From NCBI GenBank assembly GCA_963740085.1, contig CAVUCU010000001.1:1440001-1504000 (forward strand): DNA of 64,000 nucleotides. The letters are read 5' to 3'. The notes beneath the pieces were generated by a model that worked only from the letters and a program-made list of their open reading frames with translations, made no database searches and was not told the DNA's origin. Origin of the DNA: Nitrospirota bacterium. GTDB lineage: Bacteria; Nitrospirota; UBA9217. A program made the translations under genes and the position numbers. This document shows, in pieces, positions 55,228-60,774 of this stretch (positions within the stretch are counted from its first letter, which is position 1; every line of letters begins with the position of its first letter).

Positions 55228-56835
55228 ATGGATTATTCAGACGAAATAAACAAGCGGCGGACCTTCGCCATCATCAGCCACCCTGACGCGGGAAAGACCA
55301 CGCTGACGGAGAAGTTTCTGCTTTTCGGCGGGGCGATCCAGGTGGCCGGCGCGGTCAAGTCGAACAAGATCAGGAAGAGCACGTCCTCGGACTTCATGGA
55401 CATCGAGCGCCAGCGCGGCATCTCGGTGGCAACGTCGGTCATGGGCTTCGACTATAACGGACTCAAGATCAATCTGCTCGACACGCCCGGTCATAAGGAT
55501 TTTGCCGAGGACACTTATCGCACACTGACCGCGGTGGACAGCGTTATCCTCATCATTGACTGCGTCAAGGGCGTGGAGGAACAGACCCTCCGGCTTATGG
55601 AAGTCTGCCGCATGCGCAAAACGCCCGTCATCATCTTCGTGAACAAGCTCGACCGCGAGGGCAAGCATCCCTTCGAGCTTCTGGACGAGCTCGAAACAAA
55701 GCTGAACATAAAGGTCCAGCCGCTCTCATGGCCCATCAGCATGGGAACCTCCTTCAAGGGCGTTTACAATCTCTACAACAACAGCCTCTATCTCTTCCGG
55801 CCCGGCGGCGTCAAGGTCGCGGAGGACATACTCGAGATCCAGGGCATCGGCGACCCCGTCCTTGACCAGCAGCTCGGCGACTATGCGGTAAAACTCCGTG
55901 AGGACGTTGAGTTGATCGAGGGCACGCACAATCCCTTTGACGTAAATGCGTACCTGCGCGGCGACCTTGCACCGGTCTTCTTCGGCAGCGCCATCAACAA
56001 CTTCGGCGTGAAGGAACTGCTCGACACCTTCACCGAGATCGCGCCCACACCCGGCAGCAGGCCCACCGACCAGCGGGTCGTCAACGCCGATGAGAAGGAC
56101 TTCACGGGCTTCGTGTTCAAGATCCACGCGAACCTGGACCCCAGGCATCGCGACCGCATCGCCTTTATCCGCGTCTGCTCGGGCAAGTTCGAGCGGAACA
56201 AGATGTTCCTTCATGTGCGCCTGGGCAAACAGATCCGGTTTACCAGCCCGGCGAGTTTCCTGGGGGCGCGGAAGAGCATCGTGGACGAGGCCTTTCCCGG
56301 CGATGTGATCGGACTGTATGATACCGGCAATTTCAAGATCGGTGACACGCTCACGGAAGGCGAGAAGCTCATGTTCCAGGGCATCCCTACCTTCTCGCCC
56401 GAGGTGTTCAAGGAACTCGTGAACCTCGACCCGTCGAAATCGAAACAGCTGGCAAAGGGCATCGAGCAGCTTACCGACGAGGGCGTGGCCCAGCTCTTCA
56501 CCCAGCAGCAGGGCAACCGCAGGATCGTCGGTACGGTGGGTCAGCTACAGTTCGATGTGCTGCAGTACCGGCTGGAGCACGAGTACAACGCGACCTGCAG
56601 GTTCGATCCGATGAAGATCTTCAAGGCGTGCTGGATCACTGCGAGCGACGAAAAGGAAATGGACAAGTTCTGCAGATTCAAATCGGACCGCATCGCCACG
56701 GACAAGGACGGCAATATCGTGTTCCTCGCGGAATCGGATTGGGTGTTGCGAAATATGATCGAGGCCTACCCCGATATCAAATTCCATTTTACTTCTGAGT
56801 TCAAGCGGGAAATGCAGAAGACCAGCGCAACGTAA
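55228..56835 (+). CDS. prfC: Peptide chain release factor 3
   Basis: [49 protein letters not shown]. Confidence 0.97.
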
Positions 56836-57345
56836 TTACCATCATTTAAATCAATCCTACACCGCAGAGCGCGCAGAGAACTTCTTGAAGTAGAACTTCG
56901 GTGCCTCCGCGTCCTCGTCCCGCCTCTCCGCCTTTTAATTATCAGCTCCGTTTGTTTTTTCTTCTTCTAACCGCAAAGTTCACAAAGTTTATTACTATCT
57001 AAAAGACTGGGTCTTCCGGGTTTTGTGTGGGTCGCTTTTATCCGTCCTTAAATCAGCCCATGAGGAGGGAATCGTTTTTTTTGCACATCCCCTTCGTGTC
57101 CTGAACGACATTTTTGGCACCCGTCTAAGGCCGCGTCCGCTCGCCCGCGCAAACTCGGCCTGCGCCCTCAGACACCGTGCTCTTGCGATAACGCTGGTGC
57201 AGGCAGTGCAACGCGTTCGCCCTGCGGGATGCTTCCTTAGACATAATGGCTGACAGTTACAAAAATAGTGACCTGCCCCTTGCAACGTGGGTTATACTTG
57301 AGAACCAGGTTCTCAAATACAGAGCCACAACCAAGGAGGCAGGTC

Positions 57346-58455
57346 GTGAAACATTCTATCATTTTTGTCGGACTCGATGTACACAAAGATTCTATTGATA
57401 TCGCTCTCGCAGATGACGGCAGAGACGGTGAAGTCAGATCCTACGGCGCTATTGGGGGAGATCTGACTTCACTGGATAAAGCGATCCGCAAATTTCGCCG
57501 TTCTGGTGTTGAACTTCGCTTCGTGTATGAAGCCGGCCCCTGCGGTTATGAAATCTACCGGCATTTAACCGCGCAGGGGTTCCATTGCGATGTTATCGCT
57601 CCCTCGATGACGCCAATACGGAGCGGAGACCGGATCAAAACCGACCGGCGCGATGCCGTTACTCTGGCCCGGCTGTATCGTGCAGGTGAACTGACCCCGG
57701 TTTATGTCCCCCGAGAGGACGATGAGGCCATGCGAGACCTCGGCCGGGGCCGGGAAGACGCAGTAAATGCCAGCCGGAAAGCCCGACAACGGTTAAGCGC
57801 CTTTGTCCTTCGGCATGGTTTCCGGTTTGTGAGCAGAAAAGCATGGAGCGTCGCTCACCTGCGGTGGCTTGCGGATATCAAGATGTCGCATCCGGCACAA
57901 CAGATCACGCTCCAGGAGTACATCCACAGCGTCGAAGAGTGCTCAGAACGGGTAGACCGGTTGACCGAACAGATATTGAAACTGCTTCCATCATGGCGAA
58001 TGGCCCCGGTGGTGACTGCTCTTCAAGGTCTTCGCGGCGTAGCTACTGTGGTTGCCGTTACCATGGTGGTTGAAATAGGCGACCTGAGGCGGTTTGAGAA
58101 CCCCCGGCAGCTCATGGCATATCTGGGCCTTGTGCCGTCCGAGAATTCCAGTGGCCAGACCACAAAACGCGGCGGCATTACCAAAACGGGTAATGGACAT
58201 GCCAGACGAGCTCTGATTGAAGCGGCACAGGCATACAGCTTTCAGGCCAGAGTCAGCAGGGAACTCCGGAAACGTCAAGAGGGCCTGACGCGTGAGATCA
58301 AGGAAATCTCCTGGAAAGCTCAAGTACGGCTCTGCGGCCGGTTCCGGAAGCTTACTGCCAGAGGAAAGAACCGAAACCGAACTGTAACGGCAATTGCACG
58401 GGAGCTTTCCGGCTTTATGTGGGCCATTGCTAAGGCAGTACCCATGCCGGCGTAG
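57346..58455 (+). CDS. IS110 family DEDD recombinase/transposase
   Basis: GGAGG + GTG; GLDVH, YEAGPCG, KTDRRDA, GLVPSENSSG, GGITKTGN. Confidence 0.95.
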   Translation: MKHSIIFVGLDVHKDSIDIALADDGRDGEVRSYGAIGGDLTSLDKAIRKFRRSGVELRFVYEAGPCGYEIYRHLTAQGFHCDVIAPSMTPIRSGDRIKTDRRDAVTLARLYRAGELTPVYVPREDDEAMRDLGRGREDAVNASRKARQRLSAFVLRHGFRFVSRKAWSVAHLRWLADIKMSHPAQQITLQEYIHSVEECSERVDRLTEQILKLLPSWRMAPVVTALQGLRGVATVVAVTMVVEIGDLRRFENPRQLMAYLGLVPSENSSGQTTKRGGITKTGNGHARRALIEAAQAYSFQARVSRELRKRQEGLTREIKEISWKAQVRLCGRFRKLTARGKNRNRTVTAIARELSGFMWAIAKAVPMPA

Positions 58456-58719
58456 GGCCAGGACCAAAAGCTTTCAAAGAACAAGACCGCAATTAAGGAG
58501 AACAGCCAAGAACAAAAAAACAACTATCCAGGGTATCACCAGAGATGCGACCACGATCTGGAGAACTCTCGTTTGGCCTAGGGAATAAGGCTCTTGCCGA
58601 ACTTCCGTTCTTAGAGCGAGACAGCTCCGCGATGAAGACAAGTCATGCGGTCAAACCCGCGAATATCAGAGTGATCAATCGTCGCCGTACAGGTCCCATC
58701 TCTGATTATGTCCTGGACC
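58456..58719 (+). ncRNA. Putative bridge/seek RNA in the right non-coding end
   Basis: Stem-internal loop-stem structure carrying segments matching the target (58574-58580, 58608-58614) and the donor junction (58663-58670, 58705-58712); ends approximate. Confidence 0.75.
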
Positions 58720-58886
58720 AAAAACTAACAGCATTCGCTTTATATAACGAGGCATTTGAATCTATTTTCTTATTGACAACTGTCAGCCATATCAGGCCAG
58801 GACGGGTGCCAAAAATATCGTAAGGGCCGCTCCGGGGACGTGCGGGGTTGGGGTAAATCTTTTTGATTCTGACTTTCCCCGGCGCC

Positions 58887-59069
58887 GGGCAGCTCTGACC
58901 GAAAGACGCGCATAGCAATGCTGCACAGACCGTAGTTGCGAGAACACGACAAGGCAGACACGGCCGAACCCTTTTTAAAGGGTGAGGGTGGAGTGCTGCC
59001 AGACCTGCATATCAGTGCGGAGATACTGTATATATCCGGCATGCTGCGCGGCCGAGCGATGAGCTGCCC
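58887..59069 (+). repeat. 183-nt structured cassette, copy Y
   Basis: Closing stem GGGCAGCTC/GAGCTGCCC; homologues at 61200-61429 (-) and 61472-61654 (+). Confidence 0.75.
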
Positions 59070-59235
59070 AAAAAAACAATGCACACGTTGGACAAGTGCC
59101 AACTAGATATCCTTAATTAAGTGATCCACATAAAAGTCAGAAGAACCAAAAGACTTTTTCTCTGCGTCCTCTGCGGTAAAATAGCCTTCTCGTTTATCCT
59201 AAAACTATTTACATTTTATAGTCGTCGTCTCGATA

Positions 59236-59292: not shown

Positions 59293-60645
59293 TTAGATCT
59301 TGGGAAGCTTTGCGAGGGCCTCTTTGATCTTCGCCGCCGGATACTCATAGTCCTTAAGCTTGCCGTCATGATAATCCGCATATGCCTGGAGATCGAGGTA
59401 CCCGTGGCCGCTCAGGTTGAAGAGGATCGTCCTTTGTTTGCCTTCCTGCTTTGCCTGGAGCGCTTCATCGATAGCACCGCGGATCGCGTGTGCGCTTTCG
59501 GGGGCGGGAATGATCCCTTCGGTGCTGGCAAACTGCACCGCGGCTTCGAACACCGGTATTTGGTTGTACGCCTTGGCCTCGATCAGCTTGTCATGATAGA
59601 GTTGAGATATGATCGGTGAGTCGCCGTGGTAGCGCAGCCCTCCTGCATGAATGCCCGGGGGCATGAAGTCATGGCCGAGGGTATACATCGTCATCAGGGG
59701 AGTCAGTCCGGCAACATCGCCGAAGTCGTACCGAAACTCGCCCTTGGTGAGCGTGGGACAGGACGCGGGCTCGATGGCTACGATGCGAACCTTCTTGCCC
59801 TCGATCTTGTCATGTACGAATGGAAAGCTGATGCCGGACAGATTGCTTCCGCCGCCACAGCAGCCGATCACGACATCGGGGTAGTCTCCGGCGATCTCCA
59901 TCTGTTTCTTGGCCTCGAGCCCGATCACGGTCTGGTGCAGGCATACGTGGTTCAGCACCGAGCCGAGGGCATAGTTGGTATCATCATGCGTGGCAGCATC
60001 TTCCACGGCCTCGGATATGGCAAGGCCGAGGCTGCCCGGGTTGTTCGGGTCAAGTTCAAGGGCCTTCCTTCCCGAATTCGTGACCGTCGAGGGACTCGCG
60101 TGAACCGTGGCACCCCATGTTTCCATCATCATCCTGCGGTAGGGTTTCTGGCCATAGCTCACCTTCACCATGTAGACCGTGACATCGAGCCCGAAAAGCT
60201 TGCCCGCGAGGGCCATGGATGAACCCCACTGGCCGGCACCGGTCTCGGTGGAGATGCGCTTGATACCCGCCTTTTTATTATAATAAGCCTGGGGGATGGC
60301 GGTATTCGGCTTGTGGCTGCCCGCAGGGCTCACGCCTTCATATTTATAGTAGATCTTTGCCGGAGTGCCGAGCGCCTTTTCGAGCCGGTGCGCGCGAAAG
60401 AGCGGCGAGGGCCTCCAGAGAGAATAGATGTCCATAACTTCTTCCGGGATGTCGATCCACCGCTCCTGGCTCACCTCCTGCAAAATCAGATCCATCGGAA
60501 ATATCGGGGTGAGATCCTGCGGTCCTATCGGCTGATGCGTGCCCGGATGGAGCGGCGGCTTGGGCTTGTTCGGCATGTCCGCCATGATGTTGTACCACTT
60601 GGTGGGGATCTCTTTGTCGGAAAGAAGAATCTTGGTCTGTCTCAT
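59293..60645 (-). CDS. trpB2: TrpB2-type tryptophan synthase beta (PLP enzyme)
   Basis: [44 protein letters not shown]. Confidence 0.93.
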
Positions 60646-60774
60646 ACATCCTCCTCGATAATCAATTATAGTCTTGCTGCACATCCGGCACGTTCGTAAT
60701 AGTATACTATTCTGTGGACTTTCTCAACGATATTTTCTTCAGATACGCTGGTGAGAATCGCCTGCAAAACCACA

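What the first reader, a model, noticed from the sequence alone, without database searches (positions are those of the whole stretch)
58456..58793. IS1111-group bridge/seek RNA whose four guide segments can be read against its own target and donor
Seen: the reconstructed empty target is GCTTCCTT-AG-GCCAGG and the circle junction is GCCATATC-AG-ACATAATGG. In the right end, an internal loop closed by GGAG..TCTCG/CGAGA..CTCC and GGA/TCC carries TGGCCTA (58574-58580, exact reverse complement of target TAGGCCA) and TTCTTAG (58608-58614, equal to target TCCTTAG with one G.U). A second region carries ATATCAGA (58663-58670, identical to the junction left arm plus core) and ATTATGTC (58705-58712, reverse complement of GACATAAT). 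Established: IS110/IS1111 recombinases are guided by bispecific bridge/seek RNAs, encoded downstream of the transposase gene in the IS1111 group. Inference: an intact, programmable RNA-guided recombinase with an AG core, with the right-target guide placed before the left-target guide.
Basis: partly seen in the sequence, partly recalled or inferred. Interest (0 to 1): 0.75.

Follow-up and report, generated by a model that had tools for sequence, protein, structure and literature searches.

The report
IS1111-type insertion sequence with seekRNA
This is an intact insertion sequence of the known IS1111 type whose downstream non-coding RNA carries two short guides that match its own insertion site, so it is an ordinary new member of a recently described class of RNA-guided DNA recombinases.

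Summary
The element spans 57241-58793, or 57239-58793 by the Hall-lab convention. It has every sequence hallmark of the IS1111 group and a 338-nt NCR downstream of an intact DEDD/Ser-Gly transposase. Across 24 distinct relatives the NCR folds into a conserved ~190-nt RNA, with 96.4% of cells paired and 21 compensatory pairs. The two target guides are real. They are the hypervariable unpaired blocks, and they track each element's own flanks in 36 insertions of 18 lineages; 0 of 20,000 shuffles reach the observed match. Uninterrupted paralogous host repeats read GCTTCCTT-AG-GCCA, confirming the reconstructed target. ATATCAG is near-invariant in a multiloop and is a plausible left-donor guide. 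The claimed right-donor guide is not supported: it is the 3' strand of the covarying basal stem and varies while the left end stays the same. Placing the right-target guide before the left one is the published IS1111 pattern (PMC11187229). Expression, circle formation and activity were not shown.

The parts
57231..57240 (+). Left half of the target (GCTTCCTT) plus the AG at the left junction
   Evidence: Read. Uninterrupted paralogs show GCTTCCTTAGGCCA with one AG.
57239..57245 (+). 7-bp left terminal extension (AGACATA) by the Hall-lab convention. By the bridge-RNA convention the left end starts at 57241, after a shared AG core.
   Evidence: Position relative to sTIR-L. The 7-bp-left / 3-bp-right convention is taken from passages of PMC11187229.
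57246..57258 (+). Left subterminal inverted repeat (ATGGCTGACAGTT)
   Evidence: Perfect 13-bp reverse complement of 58778-58790. Conserved in relatives.
57242..57247 (+). -10-like hexamer (CATAAT) of the promoter that would form at the circle junction
   Evidence: TTGACA, 18 nt, then CATAAT when right and left ends are joined. Function inferred from ISEc11 (PMC11187229 section 7).
57346..58455 (+). Transposase/recombinase gene, 369 aa. GTG start, 6 nt after the ribosome-binding site AAGGAGG (57333-39).
   Evidence: Pfam PF01548 (E 1e-14) and PF02371 (E 3.2e-23). D11, E62, D100, D103 and S269-G270 align to IS621 D11/E60/D102/D105/S241-G242. Relatives match from residue 1.
58456..58793 (+).
   Evidence: No Rfam match at E up to 1.
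58524..58719 (+). Conserved structured RNA (covariance model R1). The paired domain is 58527-58717.
   Evidence: 24 distinct relatives, 52 pairs, 96.4% of cells paired against 31-45% when partners are slid, 21 pairs with compensatory change. MFE z-score -4.61. 208.8 bits, and the only hit in the own genome.
58527..58557 (+). 5' strand of the basal stem (helices 1 and 2)
   Evidence: Pairs with 58678-82 and 58692-58717. 15 of 22 pairs (helix 1) and 1 of 5 pairs (helix 2) show changes on both sides.
58560..58628 (+). Target-binding stem-loop. Helices GGAG/CTCC and TCTC/GAGA close a large internal loop, capped by helices GAA/TTC and GGC/GCC.
   Evidence: Its 69-nt size is comparable to the published short seekRNAs of 70-100 nt (PMC11187229 section 14).
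58572..58580 (+). Right-target guide (UUUGGCCUA). It is complementary to the top strand T-AG-GCCA(A) and sits on the 5' side of the internal loop.
   Evidence: Hypervariable block, 1.51 bits per column, 17 distinct versions in 24 RNAs. It tracks the right flank: 81.08 of 108 against 37.8 in shuffles, 0 of 20,000. It pairs 8 nt with 4 of the 5 free genomic sites.
58608..58614 (+). Left-target guide (UUCUUAG). It has the same sense as the top strand TCCTT-AG with one G.U, and sits on the 3' side of the internal loop.
   Evidence: The variable 4 nt carry 1.43 bits and the TAG is invariant. It tracks the left flank: 37.5 of 72 against 22.6 in shuffles, 0 of 20,000.
58663..58670 (+). Candidate left-donor guide (AUAUCAGA), identical to the right-end tip ATATC plus AG plus the first base of the left end. 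It lies in the multiloop.
   Evidence: 8 of 8 identical in 22 of 24 RNAs and 7 of 8 in 2. It is the only family-wide donor match, 7.00 of 7. ISEc45 has a 2-nt-shorter block and a 2-nt-shorter right-end tip.
58705..58712 (+). Here it is read as part of the 3' strand of the basal stem, not as a guide.
   Evidence: Alignment columns 193-200 pair with columns 11-17 with compensatory changes. WC complementarity to the left end is 8/8 only here and 6/8 or less in 21 of 24 RNAs. It scores 5.54 of 7 against a background of up to 5.92.
58773..58778 (+). Outward-facing -35 hexamer (TTGACA) of the junction promoter
   Evidence: Conserved in all aligned relatives.
58778..58790 (+). Right subterminal inverted repeat (AACTGTCAGCCAT)
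58791..58793 (+). 3-bp right terminal extension (ATC), the last bases of the element
58794..58803 (+). AG plus the right half of the target (GCCAGGAC), part of a host repeat

Best explanation
Window 57241-58793 (57239-58793 by the Hall-lab convention) is one intact copy of an IS1111-group insertion sequence of the IS110 family. It encodes a 369-aa DEDD plus Ser-Gly recombinase.

Downstream of that gene lies a ~190-nt structured RNA (58527-58717) of the seekRNA / bridge-RNA kind. A stem-loop at 58560-58628 holds a large internal loop with two guides:
[quoted passage not shown] The two guides overlap on TAG. They direct insertion into the site TCCTT-AG-GCCA, which lies in a host repeat.

[quoted passage not shown] I put this step at about 55%. 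No RNA segment convincingly reads the left end. That end, with its 13-bp subterminal inverted repeats, is probably recognised by the protein. By analogy with ISEc11, the RNA would be co-transcribed with the transposase gene from a promoter formed at the circle junction (TTGACA, 18 nt, CATAAT).

Shown here: the anatomy, the RNA structure covariation, the guide-flank covariation and the native target. Inferred: transcription and processing of the RNA, binding to the recombinase, circle formation and present-day activity.
For: Family hallmarks:
- PF01548 and PF02371.
- Catalytic D11/E62/D100/D103 and S269-G270, and the GL-P----SG motif (IS621 residues from passages of PMC11208158).
- A perfect 13-bp sTIR with 7-bp and 3-bp extensions.
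- A 338-nt NCR downstream of the gene against 105 nt upstream.

RNA:
- Across 24 distinct relatives there are 52 pairs, 96.4% of cells paired against 31-45% for slid partners, and 21 pairs with compensatory change against 8.2 in shuffles (0 of 500).
- Many G.U variants, and 173-209 bits forward against 19-35 bits on the reverse strand, fix the strand.
- Model R1 finds the RNA in 44 of 52 further loci across several phyla. Where a transposase gene was mapped, the hit lies downstream of it.
- It also finds the RNA next to the named ISSso6 (67.7 bits) and ISEc45 (33 bits).

Guides:
- In 36 insertions of 18 guide lineages the right flank matches 81.08 of 108 positions (shuffles 37.8). The left flank matches 37.5 of 72 (shuffles 22.6). 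0 of 20,000 shuffles reach either value.
- 34 of 36 insertions have at least 3 contiguous matches beyond T plus the dinucleotide.
- The guide blocks are the most variable unpaired columns: 1.51 and 1.43 bits against 0.50 for the other unpaired columns.
- Eight ISSso6 insertions fit its homologous blocks.

Target:
- Four uninterrupted paralogous repeats read GCTTCCTTAGGCCA.

Literature:
- The top-strand match lies 5' of the bottom-strand match and the matches overlap in the target (PMC11187229, sections 9 and 14).
- The bridge RNA lies in the right end of IS1111 elements, with donor-binding bases often in a multiloop (PMC11208160, section 12 passages).
Against: - There is only one copy in this genome although five perfect TCCTTAGGCCA sites are free. 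Present activity is therefore unproven.
- No RNA reads over the NCR, no circle junction and no precise empty site were seen. The single RNA contig covers only 58000-58222 inside the gene.
- The left-target guide matches only weakly in many insertions, 1-2 of 4 variable positions in 19 of 36. Two insertions (L014, L020) have no contiguous right-guide match beyond the core.
- The shuffle test treats lineages as independent, which related elements are not.
- The donor-guide reading of ATATCAG rests on conservation plus one indel-level covariation (ISEc45). The base after AG fits in L084 but not in six elements: L101, L099, L111, L103, L083 and ISSso6. L112 and L115 fit only with one mismatch in a shifted register.
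- ATATCAG could also be conserved as half of the small invariant hairpin AUCA/UGAU.
Confidence: 0.85

Rival explanations
1. The RNA is a bispecific bridge RNA with four working guides, and AUUAUGUC (58705-12) reads the top strand of the left end (GACATAAT).
For: - The 8-of-8 complement is present and is reached in only 82 of 5000 shuffles.
- The family consensus keeps UUAUG, with a median of 5 of 8 WC matches.
- L089 has a 9-nt complement to its left end, though at a non-homologous place in the stem.
Against: - The segment is the 3' strand of helix 1 and pairs with 58533-39. Pairs at columns 14/196, 16/194 and 17/193 change on both sides in 4, 2 and 7 sequences.
- It varies (0.81 bits per column) although nearly all 24 elements keep the left end ACATAATGG.
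- It scores 5.54 of 7 with G.U allowed, within a background of up to 5.92.
- A complement of 6 nt or more to the element's own left end is seen in only 2 of 14 representative elements.
- A near relative in metagenome contigs differs at 3 of the 8 positions.
Confidence: 0.12
2. The RNA is a target-only seeker. It guides only target choice, through the right- and left-target guides. Both IS ends are recognised by the protein through the subterminal inverted repeats, and ATATCAG is conserved for protein binding, processing or a small hairpin.
For: - For ISEc11 the 82-nt short seekRNA, which holds only the target matches, sufficed for transposition, and the role of the long form is stated to be unknown (PMC11187229 sections 10 and 14).
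- ATATCAG can pair within the invariant hairpin AUCA/UGAU.
- The base after AG does not track the left end in six elements: L101, L099, L111, L103, L083 and ISSso6.
Against: - The block is identical to the right-end tip plus AG in 22 of 24 RNAs, and a match of 7 nt or more is kept in 12 of 14 representatives.
- ISEc45 shortens both the block and the right-end tip by the same 2 nt.
- L084 changes the following base together with its left end.
- Durrant et al. report donor-binding bases in a multiloop for many IS1111 elements (PMC11208160 section 12).
Confidence: 0.3
3. The copy is a silent relic. It is structurally intact but no longer moves in this host.
For: - There is a single copy, no second RNA copy, and five free perfect sites.
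- No circle or empty-site joint was seen in the runs laid.
- Decayed, transposase-less remnants of the family exist in related genomes (L027, L029, L031).
Against: - The gene is open and all catalytic residues are present.
- Ends, sTIRs, junction-promoter hexamers and guides are all intact and fit the occupied site.
- Contigs cannot show rare circles (note).
Confidence: 0.2
4. The NCR is not an RNA gene. It encodes the 92-aa ORF at 58545-58823, or it is merely a 3' UTR or terminator.
For: An ORF is listed mechanically.
Against: - Its ATG exists only here. Alignment column 24 is C in 23 of 24 relatives.
- The ORF runs out of the element into the host flank.
- Compensatory base-pair changes and guide-flank covariation are RNA-level signals.
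- No terminator-like site was found in the NCR.
Confidence: 0.02

Closest known systems
ISEc11, ISPa11, ISKpn4 and ISPst6 seekRNAs (IS1111 family; Siddiquee et al. 2024, PMC11187229)
   Same: - The NCR lies downstream of the transposase gene.
- A stem-loop carries a top-strand match 5' of a bottom-strand match, and the two overlap in the target.
- sTIRs with 7-bp and 3-bp extensions.
- A junction promoter with -35 in the right end and -10 in the left end.
- Insertion into repeated host sequences.
- Natural re-direction among relatives by replacement of the two guide blocks.
   Different: - Different host phylum. The closest relatives are in MAGs titled Nitrospirota.
- Different target.
- The transposase is 369 aa, against the 330-350 aa quoted for the family.
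- No experiment exists for this element. I could not fetch ISEc11 itself, so RNA homology to it was not tested.
ISSso6 and ISEc45 (names as given in NCBI annotation of plasmid records)
   Same: - Closest named relatives found: 45.6% and 47.9% amino-acid identity over at least 97% of the protein.
- Model R1 finds a homologous RNA right after their transposase genes (67.7 and 33 bits).
- They have sTIRs and an AG at both junctions.
- Eight ISSso6 insertions fit the homologous guide blocks.
   Different: - Different termini and targets.
- The ISEc45 right-target block could not be matched convincingly to its right flank.
- That they belong to the IS1111 group is recalled, not taken from a call.
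IS621 bridge RNA (IS110 group; Durrant et al. 2024, PMC11208160; Hiraizumi et al. 2024, PMC11208158)
   Same: - The same protein family and catalytic residues (PDB 8wt6, E 1.6e-5).
- An internal loop whose two sides read opposite strands on either side of a shared dinucleotide.
- That dinucleotide is included in the guides.
   Different: - The RNA is in the right end, not the left end.
- The guide order in the loop is reversed.
- There is no second internal loop. The only donor-like match sits in a multiloop and no right-donor guide was found.
- Long sTIRs are present.
ISPpu9 (IS110 family; PMC12288879)
   Same: [quoted passage not shown]
- Insertion into repetitive extragenic sequences.
   Different: - ISPpu9 has its own promoter, extra small RNAs and modular circles.
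- I saw passages only and made no sequence comparison.

Membership tests
IS1111 group of the IS110 family | DEDD (RuvC-like) N-terminal domain plus the IS110-type C-terminal domain | tested here: met
   PF01548 E 1e-14 and PF02371 E 3.2e-23, both above the curated cut-offs.
IS1111 group of the IS110 family | Catalytic D-E-D-D and the GL-P----S(t)G motif with the nucleophilic serine | tested here: met
   D11, E62, D100, D103 and G261-L-V-P-S-E-N-S-S269-G270, aligned to IS621 and ISCro4 chains. The motif is as quoted in PMC11187229 section 6.
IS1111 group of the IS110 family | Subterminal inverted repeats, usually 11-13 bp | tested here: met
   A perfect 13-bp pair at 57246-58 and 58778-90.
IS1111 group of the IS110 family | Asymmetric terminal extensions beyond the repeats: 7 bp left, 3 bp right | tested here: met
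   AGACATA (57239-45) and ATC (58791-93). The convention comes from passages of PMC11187229.
IS1111 group of the IS110 family | The long non-coding region lies downstream of the transposase gene | tested here: met
   338 nt downstream (58456-58793) against 105 nt upstream (57241-57345).
IS1111 group of the IS110 family | Site-specific, oriented insertion without target duplication | tested here: met
   Uninterrupted paralogs carry one AG where the occupied site has AG at each junction. In the GG clade of relatives, 24 of 27 free repeat copies read CT|GG with no AG.
IS1111 group of the IS110 family | Transposase related over its full length to that of IS1111 itself | not tested
   IS1111 was not fetched. 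Full-length similarity was shown only to ISSso6 and ISEc45 and to 80 unnamed relatives.
IS1111 group of the IS110 family | A circular intermediate whose junction forms a promoter | not testable with these tools
   The hexamers TTGACA, 18 nt, CATAAT would form on joining the ends. No junction was seen in the contigs laid.
seekRNA (IS1111 type) | The NCR RNA carries a top-strand match 5' of a bottom-strand match, and the two overlap in the target | tested here: met
   58574-80 (complementary to the top strand) lies 5' of 58608-14 (same sense as the top strand), overlapping on TAG. It is validated by covariation.
seekRNA (IS1111 type) | The RNA is made and co-purifies with the transposase | not testable with these tools
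   Only one RNA contig was found, and it lies inside the gene.
IS621-type bispecific bridge RNA | [quoted passage not shown] | tested here: not met
   There is one target loop. The donor-like ATATCAG lies in a multiloop, and the proposed right-donor guide is a stem strand.
IS621-type bispecific bridge RNA | The RNA is encoded in the left end, upstream of the recombinase gene, with the left-target guide 5' of the right-target guide | tested here: not met
   The RNA is in the right end and the order is reversed.

The most novel reading that the evidence does not exclude
This IS1111 subfamily may work by a three-guide, asymmetric logic rather than the symmetric four-guide, shared-core logic of IS621.

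The left-target guide always ends in UAG. It reads the left flank plus the IS-borne AG. The right-target guide reads the target's own dinucleotide, which is AG here, GG in one clade and AA in another. Free copies of the GG-clade repeat read CT|GG (24 of 27).

Every complete-flank insertion in those clades (10 GG and 5 AA) has AG on the left and the target's dinucleotide on the right. The one exception is the cut L058. A 2-bp staggered exchange across mismatched dinucleotides should instead give both outcomes.

If this holds, the crossover would not be staggered across a shared core, and the donor left end would be read by protein through the sTIRs, with RNA reading only the right-end tip.
Probability: 0.3. 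Interest if true: 0.55.

Novelty: new member of a known kind. Interest (0 to 1): 0.3.

Why it matters
The finding adds a well-resolved natural example of a compact RNA-guided recombinase, one 369-aa protein plus one RNA of about 190 nt. Its lineage is spread over several phyla. Relatives supply a ready-made series of natural reprogrammings: 17 distinct right-guide versions on one conserved scaffold. That series shows which RNA positions are free to change, which is useful for engineering.

The comparison also marks which of the four proposed guides hold up. It points to an asymmetry, an invariant UAG in the left guide against a variable dinucleotide in the right guide, that bears on how IS1111-type elements differ from IS621. 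For the host genome the finding itself is ordinary: one insertion sequence in an intergenic repeat.

Tried and rejected
- Rfam: no family matched 57000-59100 at E up to 1.
- Other copies in the own genome: none.
- The two 70-nt hits in contigs C5 and C6 are left-end-like remnants, not copies.
- The other IS110-family element of this genome (3 copies, 27% identity) is not matched by model R1.
- Public runs: 20 rows hold parts, none holds half of the sampled words.
  - Laying X1, X2, X4 and X20 showed only contigs 90-99% alike, no circle junction and no precise empty-site joint. The one RNA contig lies inside the gene.
  - One joint, 57174 to 58823, is repeat-related and is not an excision.
  - These runs say nothing for or against expression or activity.
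- A family-wide search for any right-donor guide found nothing above background.
- In 14 representative elements with varied left ends, only 2 have a complement of 6 nt or more to their own left end, and these lie at non-homologous places.
- The ISEc45 right-target block could not be matched convincingly to its right flank.
- A sigma-70-like promoter inside the NCR on the + strand: none found. A terminator in the NCR: none found.
- The target-like 9-mer right after the stop codon (58456-64) has no consistent counterpart in relatives. Only L070 carries an 8-mer of its own left flank at a similar offset. I treat the 9-mer as chance or a relic.
- The 92-aa ORF at 58545-58823 is rejected, because its ATG is unique to this copy.
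- The first look for free GG-clade repeats inside held loci gave one usable copy. A genome-wide pattern search then gave enough.
- Supplementary files of the papers were not opened. The figures and supplements of PMC11187229 and PMC11208160 show the IS1111 structures and guide maps and may bear on the donor-guide question.
- I did not use the large protein searches, structure prediction or complex prediction. The family assignment did not need them.
Full report
OBSERVATION.
- The left flank GCTTCCTT-AG is at 57231-40, followed by ACATAATGG at 57241-49.
- The right end GCCATATC is at 58786-93, followed by AG (58794-95) and GCCAGG (58796-801).
- TGGCCTA is at 58574-80, TTCTTAG at 58608-14, ATATCAGA at 58663-70 and ATTATGTC at 58705-12.

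Taken alone, each match is only modestly unlikely. In 5000 dinucleotide-preserving shuffles of the NCR, exact core-including matches of the observed length occurred 351, 2890, 282 and 82 times. The 2890 refers to the exact 5-mer of the left guide. All four occurred together once. The case therefore had to be made with relatives.

THE ELEMENT. The ORF at 57346-58455 has a GTG start 6 nt after AAGGAGG. It gives a 369-aa protein with PF01548 and PF02371.
- It aligns to the solved ISCro4 and IS621 recombinases (E 9.9e-8 and 1.6e-5).
- D11, E62, D100, D103 and S269-G270 stand opposite IS621's D11, E60, D102, D105 and S241-G242. Residues were checked. The IS621 residues come from passages of PMC11208158.
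- The ends carry a perfect 13-bp subterminal inverted repeat (57246-58 and 58778-90). Seven bases (AGACATA) lie to its left and three (ATC) to its right.
- That is exactly the 7/3 asymmetry Siddiquee et al. give for the IS1111 family (passages of PMC11187229).
- The long non-coding region is downstream of the gene (338 nt against 105 nt upstream).
- Joining the ends would give TTGACA, 18 nt, CATAAT, as in the junction promoter described for ISEc11 (PMC11187229 section 7).

RELATIVES. The own genome has one copy only.
- In 64 genomes of the same order, 30 have a match, and six hold full-length copies at 81-84% DNA identity.
- A scan of one genome per species confirmed 260 stretches that encode a relative of the protein. 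80 were kept. They range from 90% down to 55% amino-acid identity and come from records of several phyla.
- After removing duplicates, 38 insertions remained.
- Nearly all of them share the termini ACATAATGG ... CCATATC (L082 differs at one base, L094 has a degenerate left end), but they sit in different flanks.

THE RNA. A 24-sequence non-redundant alignment of the region homologous to 58524-58719 gives a consensus fold of 52 pairs.
- 96.4% of cells are standard pairs, against 31-45% when partners are slid by 1-3 columns.
- 21 pairs show changes on both sides, against 8.2 in column shuffles (0 of 500).
- This element's own sequence folds at -73.6 kcal/mol, z = -4.61.
- The architecture is a 27-bp basal stem (58527-57 with 58678-82 and 58692-58717) that opens into a multiloop. 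The multiloop carries the target stem-loop (58560-58628) and small hairpins.
- G.U variants and the much weaker reverse-strand scores (19-35 against 173-209 bits) fix the strand as that of the gene.
- A covariance model built from this alignment finds the RNA in 44 of 52 further loci. The misses are loci cut before the NCR, two end fragments, and the three copies of this genome's other IS110-family element.
- The model also finds the RNA next to elements that NCBI annotation names ISSso6 (67.7 bits) and ISEc45 (33 bits).
- Rfam has no match.

TARGET GUIDES. The two sides of the large internal loop are the most variable unpaired columns: 1.51 and 1.43 bits, against 0.50 for other unpaired columns. 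There are 17 and 14 distinct versions in 24 RNAs.
- I compared each element's blocks with its own flanks in 36 insertions of 18 guide lineages. Two of the 38 insertions were dropped because their left flank is cut.
- The six right-guide positions beyond T plus the dinucleotide match 81.08 of 108, against 37.8 when guides and flanks are shuffled among lineages.
- The four variable left-guide positions match 37.5 of 72 against 22.6, or 48.25 against 34.31 with G.U allowed.
- 0 of 20,000 shuffles reached any of these values.
- 34 of 36 insertions have at least 3 contiguous right-guide matches beyond the core. L014 and L020 have none.
- The left guide is weaker: 19 of 36 insertions match only 1-2 of the 4 positions.
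- Lineages are related, so the shuffle overstates independence.
- Eight insertions of ISSso6 in one plasmid also fit its homologous blocks.
- This order, with the top-strand match first and the matches overlapping in the target, is what Siddiquee et al. report for ISEc11, ISPa11 and ISKpn4. They contrast it with the IS110 type (PMC11187229: abstract and sections 9 and 14).

THE TARGET. Both flanks belong to a host repeat. The 240-nt left flank gives 22 further blastn hits in the genome and the right flank 31. A congener has 52 matches to the left flank.
- Four uninterrupted paralogs read ...GCTTCCTTAGGCCA(A/G)GACGGG... with one AG.
- The genome has five free TCCTTAGGCCA sites, against 1.81 expected from composition. 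Four of them offer an 8-nt match to the right guide.

DONOR SIDE. ATATCAGA is identical in 22 of 24 RNAs and differs at one base in the other two.
- It is the only block that matches the circle junction family-wide, 7.00 of 7.
- It lies in the multiloop. Durrant et al. place donor-binding bases there in many IS1111 elements (PMC11208160 section 12 passages).
- Informative variation is scarce. ISEc45 has AAUA--AGAG in the RNA and a right-end tip ...CATA-AG, the same 2-nt difference in both.
- L084 changes the base after AG together with the first base of its left end.
- That base does not fit in six elements: L101, L099, L111, L103, L083 and ISSso6. L112 and L115 fit only with a mismatch in a shifted register.
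- I rate the left-donor guide as plausible, about 55%.

The proposed right-donor guide fails the comparative test.
- Its columns (193-200) are the 3' strand of helix 1, in which 15 of 22 pairs show compensatory change.
- Its WC complementarity to the left end is 8/8 only here, 7/8 in 2, 6/8 in 6, 5/8 in 12 and 4/8 in 3 of the 24 RNAs.
- Its family-wide score of 5.54 of 7 is within a background of up to 5.92.
- A residual UUAUG consensus, and a 9-nt left-end complement at another place in L089's stem, keep a small probability alive.

WHAT WAS NOT SHOWN. No run holds the whole element. The contigs laid are 90-99% alike, and the one RNA contig covers 58000-58222 only. No circle junction and no precise empty site appeared. 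No sigma-70-like promoter lies in the NCR. That agrees with co-transcription from the junction promoter but does not prove it.

A SIDE RESULT. The left guide always ends in UAG. The right guide's dinucleotide-pairing bases read AG, GG or AA in different clades, and the right flank agrees each time. In two hosts of the GG clade the palindromic repeat that is targeted is abundant (124 and 34 matches). In the free copies read (27 of 28 distinct copies from 30 loci), the base before GGATTCC is T in 24 and the one before that is C in 26. No AG stands there. In that clade the AG at the left junction is therefore IS-borne. This fits the Hall-lab view of no duplication and a 7-bp left extension, and it sits uneasily with a shared 2-bp core. 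For the element under study the native site does contain AG, so both descriptions hold. An AG crossover is also documented for ISPpu9 (PMC12288879 passages).

VERDICT. This is a correctly spotted, intact IS1111-type element with a seekRNA. Two target guides are confirmed by covariation, one donor guide is plausible, and the fourth guide is not supported. It is a new member of a known kind and its interest is modest.

Noticed in passing
window 57001-57240 and 58797-59036: The insertion sequence sits inside a multi-copy host repeat. The 240-nt left flank gives 22 further blastn hits in this genome and the right flank 31. One congener has 52 matches to the left flank. The repeat holds an imperfect palindrome: 57110-32 is the reverse complement of 58796-58817 (my reading). 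Rfam shows nothing here.
   Followed up: partly
L002 1501-1570 and L003 (own genome contigs C6 and C5): A 70-nt stretch 83% identical to the left end of the element (57242-57312) lies upstream of an unrelated, duplicated gene. It looks like a solo left-end remnant of a related element that may now supply that gene's leader.
   Followed up: partly
own genome contigs C5, C6 and C7 (L005-L010): A second IS110-family element is present in three copies. Its open frames are 426 aa and it shares 27-30% identity with this transposase. RNA model R1 does not match it.
   Followed up: no
window 58456-58464: Right after the stop codon stands GGCCAGGAC, a same-sense copy of the last core base plus the right target half. 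Relatives show no consistent counterpart; only L070 carries an 8-mer of its own left flank at a similar offset. It is probably chance or a relic.
   Followed up: yes
L052, L059, L061, L064, L069-L071, L088, L094 (GG clade); L083, L099, L101, L103, L111 (AA clade): In these relatives the left junction has AG but the right junction has GG or AA. The left guide reads AG and the right guide reads GG or AA. Free GG-clade repeat copies read CT|GG (24 of 27). L058, whose flank is cut after 3 nt, has GG on both sides.
   Followed up: partly
L027 1525-1717, L029, L031: These are copies of the RNA with no transposase gene nearby (no tblastn match). L027 is decayed: its ATATCAG block is disrupted and it has no right-end tip. 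They are remnants of the family in related genomes.
   Followed up: partly
L048 and L094: The left flank of L048 lacks the usual TAG (it ends AACG) although its right side fits its guide. L094 has a degenerate left end. Both are likely rearranged copies.
   Followed up: no
window 55228-56835 and 59293-60684: The flanking genes look like a peptide-chain release factor 3 type GTPase (+ strand) and a tryptophan synthase beta-like enzyme (- strand). These names come from my own reading of the translations. I did not test them with a family search.
   Followed up: no
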